Positions 13,662-47,654 of a DNA stretch of 64,000 nt are shown here, one piece after another. The notes beneath the pieces are model-generated. The model was given only the letters and a program-made list of their open reading frames with translations, did not search any database and was not told the DNA's origin. Each line of letters starts with the position of its first letter. Position 1 is the stretch's first letter. The DNA is taken from the NCBI RefSeq assembly GCF_009914755.1, contig NC_060931.1. One strand, written 5' to 3'. This DNA comes from the human T2T-CHM13v2.0 reference genome, Homo sapiens. Both the position numbers and the translations under genes were made by a program.

Positions 13662-14064
13662 CAGAGTTGAGGTTGCCCCTCGCAGGAGTCTCACATCCCA
13701 CAGGAATGGTCCAGTGCCAGCACTCTGTCATGTTCGTCATTAGTGGGGAGTAGCCCAGGGGAAGCGTGGCCTCACCATGAAGGTGGTAGTACATTCAGAG
13801 GGGTGGGAGCTGGGGCTACCATTTAACTACACTTCCTACAGGAGTTTCTCTCTTTTTTTTATTATACTTTAAGTTTTAGGGTACATGTGCACATTGTGCA
13901 GGTTAGTTACATATGTATACATGTGCCATGCTGGTGCGCTGCACCCACTAACTCGTCATCTAGCATTAGGTATATCTCCCAGTGCTATCCCTCCCCCTCC
14001 CACCACCCCACAACAGTCCCCAGAGTGTGATGTTCCCCTTCCTGTGTCCATGTGATCTCATTGT

Positions 14065-17000
14065 TCAATTCCCACCTATGAGTGAGAATATGCGGTGTTT
14101 GGTTTTTTGTTCTTGCGATAGTTTACTGAGAATGATAATTTCCAATTTCATCCATGTCCCTACAAAGGATATGAACTCATCATATTTTATGGCTGCATAG
14201 TATTCCATGGTGTATATGTGCCACATTTTCTTAATCCAGTCTATCATTGTTGGACATTTGGGTTGGTTCCAAGTCTTTGCTATTGTGAATAATGCCGCAA
14301 TAAACATACGTGTGCATGTGTCTTTATAGCAGCATGATTTATAGTCCTTTGGGTATATACCCAGTAATGGGATGGCTGGGTCAAATGGTATTTATTTCCA
14401 GTTCTAGATCCCTGAGGAATCGCCACACTGACTTCCACAATGGTTGAACTAGTTTACAGTCCCACCAACAGTATAAAAGTGTTCCTATTTCTCCACATCC
14501 TCTCCAGCACCTGTTGTTTCCTGACTTTTTAATGATTGCCATTCTAACTGGTGTGAGATGGTATCTCATTGTGGTTTTGATTTGCATTTCTCTGATGGCC
14601 AGTGATGATGAGCATTTTTTCATGTGTCTTTTGGCTGCATAAATGTCTTCTTTTGAGAAGTGTCTGTTCATGTCCTTCACCCACTTTTTGATGGGGTTGT
14701 TTGTTTTTTTCTTGTAAATTTGTTTGAGTTCATTGTAGATTCTGGATATTAGCCCTTGTCAGATGAGTAGGTTGCGAAAATTTTCTCCTATTTTGTAGGT
14801 TGCCTGTTCACTCTGATGGTAGTTTCTTTTGCTGTGCAGAAGCTCTTTAGTTTAATTAGATCCCATTTGTCAATTTTGTCTTTTGTTGCCATTGCTTTTG
14901 GTGTTTTAGACATGAAGTCCTTGCCCATGCCTATGTCCTGAATGGTAATGCGTAGGTTTTCTTCTAGGGTTTTTATGGTTTTAGGTCTAACATTTAAGTC
15001 TTTAATCCATCTTGAATTGATTTTTGTATAAGGTGTAAGGAAGGGATCCAGTTTCAGCTTTCTACATATGGCTAGCCAGTTTTCCCAGCACCATTTATTA
15101 AATAGGGAATCCTTTCCCCATTGCTTGTTTTTCTCAGGTTTGTCAAAGATCAGATAGTTGTAGATATGCAGCATTATTTCTGAGGGCTCTGTTCTGTTCC
15201 ATTGATCTATATCTCTGTTTTGGTACCAGTACCATGCTGTTTTGGTGACTGTAGCCTTGTAGTATAGTTTGAAGTCGGGTAGTGTGATGCCTCCAGCTTT
15301 GTTCTTTTGGCTTAGGATTGACTTGGTGATGCAGGCTCTTTTTTGGTTCCATATGAACTTTAAAGTAGTTTTTTCCAATTCTGTGAAGAAAGTCATTGGT
15401 AGCTTGATGGGGATGACATTGAATCTGTAAATTACCTTGGGCAGTATGGCCATTTTCACGATATTGATTCTTCCTACCCATGAGCATGGAATGTTCTTCC
15501 ACTTGTTTGTATCCTCTTTTATTTCATTAAGCAGTGGTTTGTAGTTCTCCTTGAAGAGGTCCTTCACATCCCTTGTAAGTTGGATTCCTAGGTATTTTAT
15601 TCTCTTTGAAGCAATTGTGAATGGGAGTTCACTCATGATTTGGTTCTCTGTTTGTCTGTTGTTGGTGTATAAGAATGCTTGTGATTTTTGTACATTGATT
15701 TTGTATCCTGAGACTTTGCTGAATTTGCTTATCAGCTTAAGGAGATTTTGGGCTGAGACAATGGGGTTTTCTAGATATACAATCATGTCGTCTGCAAACA
15801 GGGACAATTTGACTTCCTCTTTTCCTCATTGAATACCCTTTATTTCCTTCTCCTGCCTAATTGCCCTGGCCAGAACTTCCAACACTATGTTGAATAGGAG
15901 TGGTGAGAGAGGGCATCCCTGTCTTGTGCCAGTTTTCAAAGGGAATGCTTCCAGTTTTTGCCCATTCAGTATGATATTGGCTGTGGGTTTGTCATAGATA
16001 GCGCTTATTATTTTGAAATACATCCCATCAATACCTAATTTATTGAGAGTTTTTAGCATGAAGGGTTGTTGTATTTTGTCAAAGGCTTTTTCTGCATCTA
16101 TTGAGATAATCATGTGGTTTTTGTCTTTGGCTCTGTTTATATGCTGGATTACATTTATTGATTTGCGTATATTGAACCAGCCTTGCATCCCAGGGATGAA
16201 GCCCACTTGATCATGGTGGATAAGCTTTTTGATGTGCTGCTGGATTCATTTTGCCAGTATTTTATTGAGGATTTCTGCATCAATGTTAATCAAGGATATT
16301 GGTCTAACATTCTCTTTTTTTGTTGTGTCTCTGCCCGGCTTTGGTATCAGAATGATGCTGGCCTCATAAAATGAGTTAGGGAGGATTCCCTCTTTTTCTA
16401 TTGATTGGAATAGTTTCAGAAGGAATGGTACCAGTTCCTCCTTGTACCTCTGGTAGAATTCGGCTGTGAATCTATCTGGTCCTAGACTCTTTTTGGTTGG
16501 TAAGCTATTGATTATTGCCACAATTTCAGCTCCTGTTTATTGGTCTATTCAGAGATTCAACTTTTTCCTGGTTTAGTCTTGGGAGAGTGCATGTGTCCAG
16601 AAATTTATCCTTTTCTTCTAGATTTTCTGGTTTATTTGCGTAGAGGTGTTTGTAGTATTATCTTATGGTAGTTTGTATTTCTGTGGGATTGGTGGTGATA
16701 TCCCCTTTATCATTTTTTATTGCGTCTATTTGATTCTTCTCTCTTTTCTTCTTTATTAGTCTTGCTAGCGATCTATCAATTTTGTTGATCCTTTCAAAAA
16801 ACCAGCTCCTGGATTCATTAATTTTTTGAAGGGTTTTTGTGTCTCTATTTCCTTCAGTTCTGCTCTTAGTTATTTCTTGCCTTCTGCTATCTTTTGAATG
16901 TGTTTGCCCTTGCTTTTCTAGTTCCTTTAATTGTGATGTTAGGGTGTCAATTTGGATCTTTCCTGCTTTCTCTTGTGGGCATTTAGTGCTGTAAATTTCC

Positions 17001-17888
17001 CTCTACACACTGTTTGAATGTGTCCCAGAGATTCTGGTATGTTGTGTCTTTGTTCTCGTTGGTTTCAAAGAACATCTTTATTTCTGCCTTCATTTCGTTA
17101 TGTACCCAGTAGTCATTCAGGAGCAGGTTGTTCAGTTTCCATGTAGTTGAGCGGTTTTGAGTGAGATTCTTAATCCTGAGTTATAGTTTGATTGCACTGT
17201 GGTCTGAGAGATAGTTTGTTATAATTTCTGTTCTTTTACATTTGCTGAGGAGAGCTTTACTTCCAAGTATGTGGTCAATTTTGGAATAGGTGTGGTGCGG
17301 TGCTGAAAAAAATGTATATTCTGTTGATTTGGGGTGGAGAGTTCTGTAGATGTCTATTAGGTCCACTTGGTGCAGAGCTGAGTTCAATTCCTGGGTATCC
17401 TTGTTGACTTTCTGTCTCGTTGATCTGTCTAATGTTGACAGTGGGGTGTTAAAGTCTCCCATTATTAACGTGTGGGAGTCTAAGTCTCTTTGTAGGTCAC
17501 TCAGGACTTGCTTTATGAATCTGGGTGCTCCTGTATTGGGTGCATATATATTTAGGATAGTTAGCTCTTCTTGTTGAATTGATCCCTTTACCATTATGTA
17601 ATGGCCTTCTTTGTCTTTTTTGATCTTTGCTGGTTTAAAGTCTGTTTTATCAGAGACTAGGATTGCAACCCCTGCCTTTTTTTGTTTTCCATTTGCTTGG
17701 TAGATCTTCCTCCATCCTTTTATTTTGAGCCTATGGGTGTCGCTGCACGTGAGATGGGTTTCCTGAATACAGCACACTGATGGGTCTTGACTCTTTATCC
17801 AGTTTGCCAGTCTGTGTCTTTTAATTGGAGCATTTAGTCCATTTACATTTAAAGTTAATATTGTTATGTGTGAATTTGATCCAGTCAT
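14065..17888 (-). pseudogene. ORF2: L1 ORF2 (EN/RT) of E1, disrupted
   Basis: Fragments MTGSNSHITILTLNVNG..., ...LFADDMIVY..., ...FSLIGGN with stops and frameshifts. Confidence 0.95.
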
Positions 17889-17951
17889 TATGATGTTAGC
17901 TGGTTATTTTGCTCGTTAGTTGATGCAGTTTCTTCCTAGTCTCAATGGTCT

Positions 17952-46739: not shown

Positions 46740-47193
46740 CTTTGTGGTTTTATCTACTTTTGGTCTTTGATGATGGTGATGTACAGATGGGTTTTTTGGT
46801 GTGGATATCCTTTCTGTTTGTTAGTTTTCCTTCTAACAGACAGGACCCTCAGCTGCAGGTCTGTTGGAATACCCTGCCGTGTGAGGTGTCAGTCTGCCCC
46901 TGCTGGGGGGTGCCTCCCAGTTAGGCTGCTCAGGGGTCAGGGGTCAGGGACCCATTGAGGAGGCAGTCTGCCTGTTCTCAGATCCCAGCTTCGTGCTGGG
47001 AGAACCACTGCTCTCTTTAAAGCTGTCAGACAGGGACATTTAAGTCTGCAGAGGTTACTGCTGTCTTTTTGTTTGTCTGTGCCCTGCCCCCAGAGGTGGA
47101 GCCTACAGAGGCAGGCAGGCCTCCTTCAGCTGTGGTGGGCTCCACCCAGTTGGAGCTTGCCAGCTGCTTTGTTTACCTAAGCAAGCCTGGGCA

Positions 47194-47448
47194 ATGGCAG
47201 GCGCCCCTCCCCCAGCCTCGCTGCTGCCTTGCAGTTTGATCTCAGACTGCTGTGCTAGCAATCAGCGAGACTACATGGGCTTAGGACCCTCCGAGCCATG
47301 TGCGGGATATAATCTCCTGATGCGCCGTTTTTTAAGCCCGTCGGAAAAGTGCAGTATTCGGGTGGGAGTGACCCGATTTTCCAGGTGCTGTCTGTCACCC
47401 CTTTCTTTGACTAGGAAAGGGAACTCCCTGACCCCTTGCGCTTCCTGA
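47194..47448 (+). CDS. ORF0: L1 antisense ORF0 (E2), 84 aa
   Basis: MAGAPPPASLLPCSLISDCCASNQRD... Confidence 0.75.
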   Translation: MAGAPPPASLLPCSLISDCCASNQRDYMGLGPSEPCAGYNLLMRRFLSPSEKCSIRVGVTRFSRCCLSPLSLTRKGNSLTPCAS

Positions 47449-47654
47449 GTGAGGCAATGCCTCGCCCTGCTTCGGCTTGCACACGGTGCGTGCACCCACT
47501 GACCTGCGCCCACTGTCTGGCACTCCCTAGTGAGATGAACCCTGTACCTCAGATGGAAATGCAGAAATCACCCGTCTTCTGCATCACTCATGCTGGGAGC
47601 TGTAGACCGGAGCTGTTCCTATTCCTCACCTTTCAATTTTTAAAATTATTTCAG

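What the first reader, a model, noticed from the sequence alone, without database searches (positions are those of the whole stretch)
13852..47621. Two separately inserted L1s 27.8 kb apart share the same lethal ORF2 mutations: likely patchy ectopic gene conversion
Seen: E1 and E2 have unrelated TSDs and flanks, so they are not a segmental duplication. Yet both carry the same ORF2 stops at ...RQPTK* (14788-14790 / 42557-42559), ...KGIQ* (15826-15828 / 43596-43598) and ...TIR* (16658-16660 / 44427-44429), the same 1-bp deletion (gtcaatttggatc, about 16950 / 44725), and the same odd residues or bases ([13 protein letters not shown], gtgcatgtgtccagaaa, FNVIP, aatgcgtagg, gctatctttt, gctagcgatc). 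The in-window L1PA7 shows the normal state at several of these sites (cccattctgtagg, tattctctgatgg, KSPGPDGF). At sites I recall as subfamily-diagnostic they differ, with E1 younger-type and E2 older-type (RAKD vs RTKD, FIDKQ vs FTDKQ, gtgatctc vs gtgttctc); the RAKD/RTKD site lies between shared lesions. Their ORF1 proteins differ at more than 25 residues. Established: an ORF2-dead L1 cannot mobilise in cis. Inference: repeated short conversion tracts spread inactivating mutations between neighbouring direct repeats. Alternative: both were trans-mobilised from one ORF2-dead source.
Basis: partly seen in the sequence, partly recalled or inferred. Interest (0 to 1): 0.85.

Follow-up and report, generated by a model that had tools for sequence, protein, structure and literature searches.

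The report
Two neighbouring L1s exchanged sequence
Two separately inserted, dead LINE-1 copies 28 kb apart share about 25 rare mutations, including three stop codons found together nowhere else in this genome, most likely because one copied patches of DNA from the other, which is a known process.

Summary
E1 (13852-19870) and E2 (41610-47621), both on the minus strand, have unrelated target-site duplications. They share three non-CpG ORF2 stops, a 1-bp deletion and about 25 variants that are rare elsewhere. They share 21 sites exclusively, against at most 7 for any of the other 44 pairs in a 10-element panel. Seven variant k-mers scanned across the whole assembly found no third carrier of the haplotype.

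They are not simple siblings. E1 carries the youngest haplotype type and E2 an older one at 9 non-CpG diagnostic sites. Their private loads differ (63 against 92). E2 lacks about 22 nt of 5' end that E1 has. One segment tree separates them.

Sharing is concentrated in a roughly 0.5-kb block (permutation p about 0.01) and is otherwise scattered as single sites. No recent identical tract exists.

Best reading (0.6): old, patchy ectopic gene conversion between neighbours, probably E2 to E1. Rivals are a lost ORF2-dead common source with later patching, and exchange at the time of E1's insertion. Local L1-L1 conversion is already documented, so this is a new example of a known kind.

A side observation is unexplained: other L1s carrying the same rare variants cluster regionally.

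The parts
13852..19870 (-). E1: full-length L1 with poly(A) at the low-coordinate end, of the youngest haplotype type in the panel. ORF2 is broken by shared and private lesions.
   Evidence: My E1 numbering is: position p = window 19863 - p.
13839..13851 (.). E1 target-site duplication, 3' copy. The 5' copy is at 19871-19883.
   Evidence: Exact 13-bp repeat found only at these two places in the window.
41610..47621 (-). E2: L1 lacking about 22 nt of the 5' end that E1 has, with an older haplotype type and a heavier private mutation load.
41591..41609 (.). E2 target-site duplication, 3' copy. The 5' copy is at 47622-47640.
   Evidence: Exact 19-bp repeat at these two places only.
14788..14790 (-). 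Shared ORF2 stop TAG. The E2 copy is at 42557-42559.
   Evidence: Absent from 35 of 35 copies not selected on this site (27 stop2-pattern loci and 8 full-length panel elements). Present in 18 of 29 copies that were picked by similarity to a query containing it, so that count is biased.
15826..15828 (-). Shared ORF2 stop TGA. The E2 copy is at 43596-43598.
   Evidence: The 29-mer carrying it occurs 33 times among 6,586 copies of that 29-mer in the assembly.
16658..16660 (-). Shared ORF2 stop TAA with a second shared variant 4 nt upstream. The E2 copy is at 44427-44429.
   Evidence: The 29-mer has 3 hits in the assembly: E1, E2 and one otherwise unrelated chr8 L1.
16473..16954 (-). Block dense in shared variants (E1 positions 2909-3390). 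It holds 12 of 29 shared-derived sites, including the TAA stop and the 1-bp deletion. The E2 counterpart is 44245-44729.
   Evidence: In a whole-assembly search with this block E2 is the best hit (97%, 793 bits) and the next is 95% (773 bits), among 40 scored of 4,516 candidates.
16022..16351 (-). Block where E1 and E2 keep different subfamily haplotypes (E1 positions 3512-3841): E1 TAAGAT, E2 CCCAGC. The E2 counterpart is about 43792-44121.
   Evidence: The tree for segment 3461-4700 does not join E1 and E2.
17952..18968 (-). E1 ORF1, open, 338 aa. E2 ORF1 is at 45723-46739, also open and 338 aa. The two differ at 29 residues.
31969..36884 (-). E3: an older, partial L1 lying between E1 and E2. 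Tested as a possible donor with no clear signal.

Best explanation
E1 and E2 are two ordinary, independent L1 insertions of different ages. After E1 landed 27.8 kb from the older E2, in the same orientation, DNA-level non-allelic (ectopic) gene conversion moved patches of sequence between them. The direction was most likely E2 to E1. This gave E1 copies of mutations that E2 had already acquired in place, including three stops and a frameshift, and a few of E2's older-type subfamily states. The exchange is discontinuous: one block of about 0.5 kb is heavily shared, and single shared sites lie elsewhere. That pattern fits either one old event with patchy mismatch repair or many very short tracts. 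It has no functional consequence, since both ORF2s are dead.

Shown: independent insertion, exclusive sharing, subfamily mosaicism, and uniqueness of the haplotype in this assembly. Inferred: that conversion is the cause, its direction, and its age.
For: 1. Different exact TSDs and unrelated flanks show two insertion sites.
2. Exclusive sharing is 21 sites (19 non-CpG), against at most 7 (at most 3 non-CpG) for the other 44 pairs.
3. No third carrier exists in the assembly. The stop+neighbour 29-mer has 3 hits. A double-variant 29-mer has 3 hits. The other five k-mers have 15-183 hits, and apart from E1 and E2 none of those places coincide, except one old chr9 L1 that has two. Two lone carriers lying 28 kb apart in 3.1 Gb is about a 2e-5 coincidence for random retrotransposition (my calculation). 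Conversion, in contrast, is known to be distance-dependent (PMC6598467, passages read, citing Aleshin and Zhi 2010 for Alu).
4. E1 and E2 sit at opposite ends of an empirical haplotype series, CCCAGC ... TAAGAT. E2 is older-type at 16 sites (9 non-CpG) where E1 matches the younger panel. The reverse holds at 4 sites.
5. Both carry the older-type state at E1 positions 911 and 5831, where all younger panel elements differ. This is as expected if E2's states moved into E1.
6. E1+E2 are sisters in segments 2001-3460 (support 0.996) and 4701-6000 (0.88), but not in 3461-4700.
7. Shared sites are concentrated in 2909-3588: 14 of 26 informative sites, z 4.6, permutation p about 0.01.
8. E1's private load (70) equals that of its subfamily peers (71-75). 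E2's is higher at 110, or 63 against 92 after removing older-type states (p 0.024; non-CpG 38 against 66, p 0.008).
9. E2 lacks about 22 nt of 5' end present in E1, so E1 is not an RNA copy of E2.
10. Local conversion between L1PA3 copies has been seen in a human genome (PMC5829575, passages read).
Against: 1. Outside the dense block the shared sites show no run structure: 49 runs against 48.6 expected, p 0.60. They interleave with diagnostic differences at spacings as short as 23-40 bp, for example 5808/5831 and 3575/3588/3614. At least about 9 separate patches are therefore needed.
2. No stretch is less diverged than chance predicts. The longest identical run is 193 bp, and the dense block still differs at about 3%.
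3. Only 2 of about 11 non-CpG diagnostic sites carry E2's state in E1, while about 21-24% of E2-lineage new mutations are shared. This is an uneasy fit to one uniform patch probability.
4. E2's own mutation density is not higher in the unshared blocks, as a simple E2-to-E1 model predicts. Only 2 private sites lie in 3391-4035.
5. The dense block holds more shared mutations (12 in 482 bp) than E2's average rate would supply.
6. At 3389/3390 adjacent bases would have to be treated differently.
7. The panel is small: 8 full-length, 3 older full-length and 57 partial copies. It was chosen by the search tool's similarity ranking.
8. No outgroup species or second haplotype was available.
Confidence: 0.6

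Rival explanations
1. Common ORF2-dead source. Both copies were reverse-transcribed in trans from one defective L1 lineage that already carried the shared mutations. That source is now lost or absent from this assembly. The subfamily differences arose later, through conversion patches from other L1s.
For: Shared variants occur in every kilobase of the element, at least 2 per kb. The whole-element tree joins E1+E2 with support 0.996. Divergence around shared sites is as old as E1 itself. Both ORF1s are open at 338 aa, as a trans-mobilised element would need. Outside one block, shared sites are scattered as common descent predicts.
Against: No other carrier was found in the assembly with 7 k-mers. 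Two lone daughters 28 kb apart is a coincidence of about 2e-5. There are 9 non-CpG diagnostic differences plus 4 states specific to E1's type, and these would need at least 9 conversion patches from non-local donors. Private loads are unequal at 63 against 92. The shared fraction is heterogeneous along the element, p about 0.01.
Confidence: 0.2
2. Exchange at birth. While E1 was being inserted, its integration intermediate recombined with the nearby homologous E2, so E1 was a mosaic from the start.
For: Divergence between E1 and E2 inside the dense block (about 3%) is as large as E1's whole private age implies. E1's private load equals that of its peers. Chimeric L1s formed with endogenous L1s during retrotransposition in cultured cells are recalled from the literature (Symer 2002, Gilbert 2005); I did not read these here.
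Against: Such chimeras, as recalled, replace the whole 5' part and delete the DNA between the two elements. Here both TSDs are intact, and the 5' 2.9 kb of E1 is mostly not E2-like (13% shared). The timing estimate rests on treating the block as one tract.
Confidence: 0.12
3. No exchange. The sharing is parallel mutation at hot sites, a regional sequence-specific mutation process, or an assembly artefact.
For: Each single shared variant also occurs in 13-181 other L1 copies. Carriers of some of these variants cluster regionally, including three more TGA carriers within 1.4 Mb of E1/E2. The 1-bp deletion recurs in an unrelated element.
Against: About one coincident private mutation is expected by chance, whereas 19 non-CpG are observed and other pairs show 0-3. 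The mutation spectrum is ordinary and not of the editing type. The two copies differ at about 200 interleaved positions, so reads could not have been confused. A 0.5% carrier frequency (33 of 6,586) cannot produce a 25-site haplotype twice.
Confidence: 0.05

Closest known systems
Non-allelic (ectopic) gene conversion between dispersed repeats, documented for Alu and in single cases for L1
   Same: There is a mosaic of diagnostic states from different subfamilies in one copy. A nearby same-family partner exists. Flanks and TSDs are untouched. Gene trees are incongruent along the element. PMC6598467 (passages read) reviews this for Alu, with raised rates within 10 kb. PMC5829575 (passages read) shows a conversion between L1PA3 copies within one long read.
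   Different: The partners here are 27.8 kb apart. The sharing is spread over 6 kb in many very small patches rather than one clean tract. It is old. It carries three nonsense mutations. It was inferred from one genome, without the pre-conversion state.
Recombinant full-length L1s flagged in pangenome surveys
   Same: PMC13192797 (preprint, passages read) screened 2,267 young full-length L1 loci with 3SEQ and BOOTSCAN. It removed 35 as high-confidence or probable recombinants, so mosaic L1s are recognised and occur at about the percent level.
   Different: That screen concerns younger elements and parental lineages, not an identified neighbouring donor. I did not see whether this locus is among them, because supplements were not opened.
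Trans-mobilised non-autonomous L1 derivatives (ORF1-only or HAL1-like lineages; recalled, not read here)
   Same: ORF1 is open in both copies and ORF2 is dead.
   Different: There is no dispersed family. The two copies differ in subfamily background.

Membership tests
L1 insertion by target-primed reverse transcription | Target-site duplication flanking each copy, different between copies | tested here: met
   13-bp and 19-bp exact TSDs, unrelated to each other.
L1 insertion by target-primed reverse transcription | 3' A-rich tail and 5'UTR-ORF1-ORF2-3'UTR layout | tested here: met
   Tails are seen. ORF1 is 338 aa and ORF2 fragments are present. The copies are 96-97% identical to other full-length copies.
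Ectopic gene conversion between repeats | Recipient carries donor-private variants while keeping its own flanks | tested here: met
   21 exclusive shared states and distinct TSDs.
Ectopic gene conversion between repeats | Phylogenetic incongruence between segments of the same copy | tested here: met
   E1 and E2 are sisters in 2001-3460 and 4701-6000 but not in 3461-4700. About 15 sites in the 3' 3.5 kb support E1+E2, against about 10 that support E1 with the younger type and E2 with the older type.
Ectopic gene conversion between repeats | Shared sites fall in contiguous tracts | tested here: inconclusive
   One block is significant (permutation p about 0.01). The overall runs test is null at p 0.60.
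Ectopic gene conversion between repeats | Pre-conversion state visible in an orthologue or another haplotype | not testable with these tools
   Only this one assembly could be searched.
Non-autonomous, trans-mobilised L1 lineage | Several dispersed copies share the inactivating lesions | tested here: not met
   Seven k-mer scans of the assembly found only E1 and E2 carrying more than two of the variants.
Non-autonomous, trans-mobilised L1 lineage | Copies share one subfamily background | tested here: not met
   TAAGAT against CCCAGC, and 9 non-CpG diagnostic differences.
Non-autonomous, trans-mobilised L1 lineage | Intact ORF1 | tested here: met
   Both are open at 338 aa. This could also be chance.
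Segmental duplication | Homologous flanks | tested here: not met
   Flanks do not align and the TSDs differ.

The most novel reading that the evidence does not exclude
E1/E2 may be the extreme case of a wider process: short-tract, possibly GC-biased, ectopic conversion that spreads single rare variants among independently inserted L1 copies over hundreds of kilobases. That range is far beyond the roughly 10 kb reported for Alu.

Hint from clustering. Carriers of the TGA variant (33 of 6,586 copies) form 14 pairs within 1 Mb, where about 0.3 are expected. These include four independently flanked copies in 350 kb of chr9.

Hint from variant type. The two AT-to-GC variants tested cluster strongly. 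The GC-to-AT and GC-to-GC variants cluster hardly or not at all. This rests on five variants only.
Probability: 0.2. Interest if true: 0.65.

Novelty: new member of a known kind. Interest (0 to 1): 0.4.

Why it matters
If neighbouring L1s exchange patches, three things follow. Shared lesions cannot be read as proof of a common source element. Subfamily assignment and age estimates from divergence are blurred for clustered copies. Inactivating or, in principle, other variants can move between copies without retrotransposition.

For this locus there is no functional consequence. Its value is as a well-resolved example in which both partners are identified. It is also a pointer to a genome-wide test of distance-dependent L1 homogenisation in complete assemblies.

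Tried and rejected
- CpG decay as the cause of the shared stops: rejected. None of the stops is a CpG transition, and 19 of 21 exclusive shared sites are non-CpG.
- Editing-type hypermutation: the private and shared mutation spectra are ordinary.
- Segmental duplication: flanks and TSDs differ.
- A third family member on chr8 (locus L063, hit of the TAA k-mer): it shares only the two adjacent variants and none of the others.
- A third family member on chr4 (L080, hit of the double-variant k-mer): an old L1, 88% identical. It shares three states in the dense block and some older-type states, and nothing else.
- The in-window older L1 (E3) as donor: it matches E2 at 12 of 70 E2-derived sites and E1 at 5 of 45. 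Most of these are CpG or older-type states, so there is no clear signal.
- A foreign donor for the dense block: in a whole-assembly search E2 is the best match and the next hits are 2% worse (40 of 4,516 candidates scored).
- E1 as an RNA copy of E2: excluded by the 5' end.
- Masking of the assembly as the cause of clustered hits: 16 of 16 random probes held no N.
- Whole-element searches: they returned fragmentary alignments and could not rank E1 against E2.
- Density arguments to fix the direction of transfer: these gave conflicting signals and I do not rely on them.
- Earlier findings of this scan: not open to the session.
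Full report
**What is there.**
The window holds two near full-length L1 copies on the minus strand.
- E1 occupies 13852-19870 and is flanked by an exact 13-bp target-site duplication (13839-13851 and 19871-19883).
- E2 occupies 41610-47621 and is flanked by an exact 19-bp duplication (41591-41609 and 47622-47640).
- The flanks do not align. E2 lacks about 22 nt of the 5' end that E1 has.
- The two differ at 187 mismatches and 15 gap events over 6,005 aligned columns. That is 93 mismatches in the first 2 kb and 94 in the remaining 4 kb.
- Both ORF1s are open at 338 aa and differ at 29 residues.

In what follows, E1 position p equals window coordinate 19863 - p.

None is a CpG transition.
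- The 1-bp deletion is a run of three A where 6 of 8 panel copies have four. One unrelated copy has the same shortening.
- The peptide strings quoted as shared ([18 protein letters not shown]) are present as stated. So are those quoted as different (RAKD/RTKD, FIDKQ/FTDKQ).

**Is the sharing more than chance?**
I fetched other L1 copies from the same assembly and projected them on E1 coordinates with BLAST. The panel had four parts:
- 29 partial copies around the first stop;
- 28 partial copies that carry the second stop's 29-mer;
- 8 full-length copies that the search tool ranked nearest to E1 or E2;
- 3 older full-length copies.

Among E1, E2 and the 8 full-length copies, E1+E2 alone share a state at 21 sites, 19 of them non-CpG. 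The next pairs share 7, 5 and 4, with at most 3 non-CpG. The median over the 45 pairs is 2. With looser criteria the shared-derived set is 25-29 sites. It runs from E1 position 156 to 5831, with at least two sites in every kilobase.

**Is there a dispersed family?**
I scanned the whole assembly for exact k-mers spanning shared variants. All hit counts below include E1 and E2.

| k-mer | hits |
|---|---|
| TGA stop | 33 |
| TAA stop with its neighbouring variant | 3 |
| double variant at 3262/3273 | 3 |
| 4616 | 183 |
| 506 | 15 |
| 4447 | 35 |
| 1980 | 21 |

- Apart from E1 and E2, no place appears in more than one list, except one old chr9 L1 that has two of the variants.
- The extra chr8 and chr4 hits are unrelated elements.
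- With the 482-bp block richest in shared variants as query, E2 is the best hit in the assembly (97%) and all others are at 95% or less (40 of 4,516 candidates scored).
- In this genome the haplotype therefore exists only in these two neighbours.

**They are not simple siblings.**
- At E1 positions 3512, 3542, 3614, 3732, 3776 and 3841 the panel forms a stepwise series: CACAGC, CCCAGC, TCCGAC, TCAGAC, TAAGAC, TAAGAT. E2 is CCCAGC, like eight other copies. E1 is TAAGAT, like one other copy.
- I polarised sites with the three older full-length copies. E2 has the older state at 16 sites (9 non-CpG: 741, 1665, 2697, a 5-bp indel near 2997, 3512, 3732, 3776, 5808, 5969) where E1 agrees with the younger panel.
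- The reverse holds at 4 sites.
- Both copies have the older state at 911 and 5831.
- FastTree on segments joins E1 and E2 in 2001-3460 (0.996) and 4701-6000 (0.88), and weakly in 770-2000 (0.40). It does not join them in 3461-4700, where E1 sits with two younger-type copies and E2 lies near the root.
- Private loads differ. They are 70 against 110 by the first count (panel range 38-86), and 63 against 92 after removing older-type states (binomial p 0.024; non-CpG 38 against 66, p 0.008).
- Because E2 lacks 5' sequence that E1 has, E1 cannot be a reverse-transcribed copy of E2. E2's older states argue against the reverse.

**Arrangement of shared sites.**
I treated E1 as a possible mosaic of E2 and its own type, taken as the states on which the two nearest younger-type copies agree.
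- E1 sides with E2 at 30 of 145 informative sites. Six control copies do so at 7-16.
- A window scan finds one enriched stretch, E1 positions 2909-3588, with 14 of 26 sites (z 4.6). At most 2 of 300 permutations reached this value, giving p about 0.01.
- Over the whole element the number of runs (49) equals the permutation mean (48.6).
- Shared sites and diagnostic differences alternate at least nine times. The spacing is sometimes only 23-40 bp, as at 5808/5831 and 3575/3588/3614.
- The longest stretch without any difference is 193 bp. That is about what roughly 200 differences in 6 kb give by chance (my calculation).
- The dense block itself still differs at about 3%.

**Interpretation.**
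A tree without exchange cannot hold both sets of sites, so some recombination is required.

I give local ectopic conversion between E1 and E2 a confidence of 0.6. It needs no coincidence of position. The donor is the nearest full-length copy in the same orientation. It explains why E1 has the load of its peers plus extra variants, and why E1 carries two of E2's older states.

A lost ORF2-dead source (0.2) has two costs. Its only two known daughters would have to land 28 kb apart, which is about 2e-5 for random insertion. At least nine patches from distant donors would then be needed to create the subfamily differences.

Exchange during E1's integration (0.12) fits the apparent age. It does not fit the intact TSDs or the mostly unshared 5' half of E1.

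Chance, regional mutation or an assembly error (0.05) cannot produce a 25-site haplotype twice.

The conversion reading has several weaknesses:
- There is no clear tract structure outside one block.
- The patches are either old or very short.
- Only 2 of about 11 non-CpG diagnostic sites are shared, against about a fifth of E2-lineage mutations.
- E2's private density is not higher in the unshared blocks.
- The dense block holds an excess of shared mutations.
- The panel is small and was selected by similarity.

The apparent age could follow from the known need for long perfect identity in mammalian homologous recombination. I recall this point and did not check it here. It would make exchange easiest soon after E1 arrived.

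**Relation to what is known.**
- Mosaic Alu copies and distance-dependent homogenisation are established (PMC6598467, passages read).
- A conversion between L1PA3 copies within one long read has been shown (PMC5829575, passages read).
- A recent preprint removes 35 of 2,267 young full-length L1 loci as recombinants (PMC13192797, passages read).
- My four literature searches found no report of this locus. They also found no genome-wide distance analysis for L1. Subscription papers are not covered by these searches.
- I file this as a new example of a known kind.

**Side observation, unexplained.**
Carriers of some of the same rare variants cluster regionally.
- The TGA 29-mer occurs in 33 of 6,586 copies of that 29-mer.
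- Leaving E1 and E2 out, 14 carrier pairs lie within 1 Mb, against about 0.3 expected.
- Three further carriers lie within 1.4 Mb of E1/E2.
- The 4616 and 1980 variants also cluster. The 4447 variant barely does and the 506 variant does not.
- Cluster mates are different elements, 4-7% apart.
- The three chr9 mates tested have unrelated 3' flanks. For the chr1 pair only part of one flank was compared.
- Mates share at least 2 further exclusive variants in 6 of 15 pairs, against 30 of 363 non-mate pairs. This comparison is confounded by age cohort.
- No co-transferred neighbouring variants were evident within 200 bp of the site.
- Random probes of the assembly held no N.
- This may be the same process acting at longer range, possibly GC-biased, but five variants are too few to say.

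Noticed in passing
assembly-wide; chr9 15.57-15.92 Mb (L051-L054), chr1 211.2-212.4 Mb (L031-L034), chr7 96.45/98.49/98.56 Mb (L044, L047, L048): L1 copies carrying the same rare TGA variant cluster regionally. There are 14 carrier pairs within 1 Mb against about 0.3 expected, among 33 carriers of 6,586 copies. The chr9 mates are independent insertions with unrelated flanks. The 4616 and 1980 variants cluster similarly, and the 4447 and 506 variants barely or not at all.
   Followed up: partly
window 17952-18968 and 45723-46739: Both ORF1s are still open at 338 aa even though each element carries 1-2% private change and a multiply broken ORF2. This could be chance; I estimate roughly 0.3 per element.
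   Followed up: no
L097+L020, L098+L009, L100+L024 (chr10, chr3, chr4): The older-type full-length copies have about 90-150 extra bases in the 5'UTR next to E1 position 766. E2 lacks this segment although its ORF2 haplotype is of the older type, so E2 belongs to an intermediate stage of the series.
   Followed up: partly
window 19609-20197, 46584-47585, 19774-19913: The RefSeq 'enhancer' features coincide with the 5'UTRs of E1 and E2. An alternative SEM1 exon (19774-19913) spans the E1 5' junction, which suggests L1-associated transcription. This rests on the hub's annotation only.
   Followed up: no
L004 and L011 (chr3 110.98 and 110.99 Mb): Two L1 copies 11.6 kb apart in opposite orientation both carry the TAG variant. 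This may be another neighbour pair or an inverted duplication.
   Followed up: no
panel copies F19 (chr19 40.64 Mb) and F8 (chr8 98.42 Mb): These two dispersed full-length copies differ at only 85 positions and share several exclusive states. They are ordinary siblings from one source, and a useful contrast to E1/E2.
   Followed up: partly
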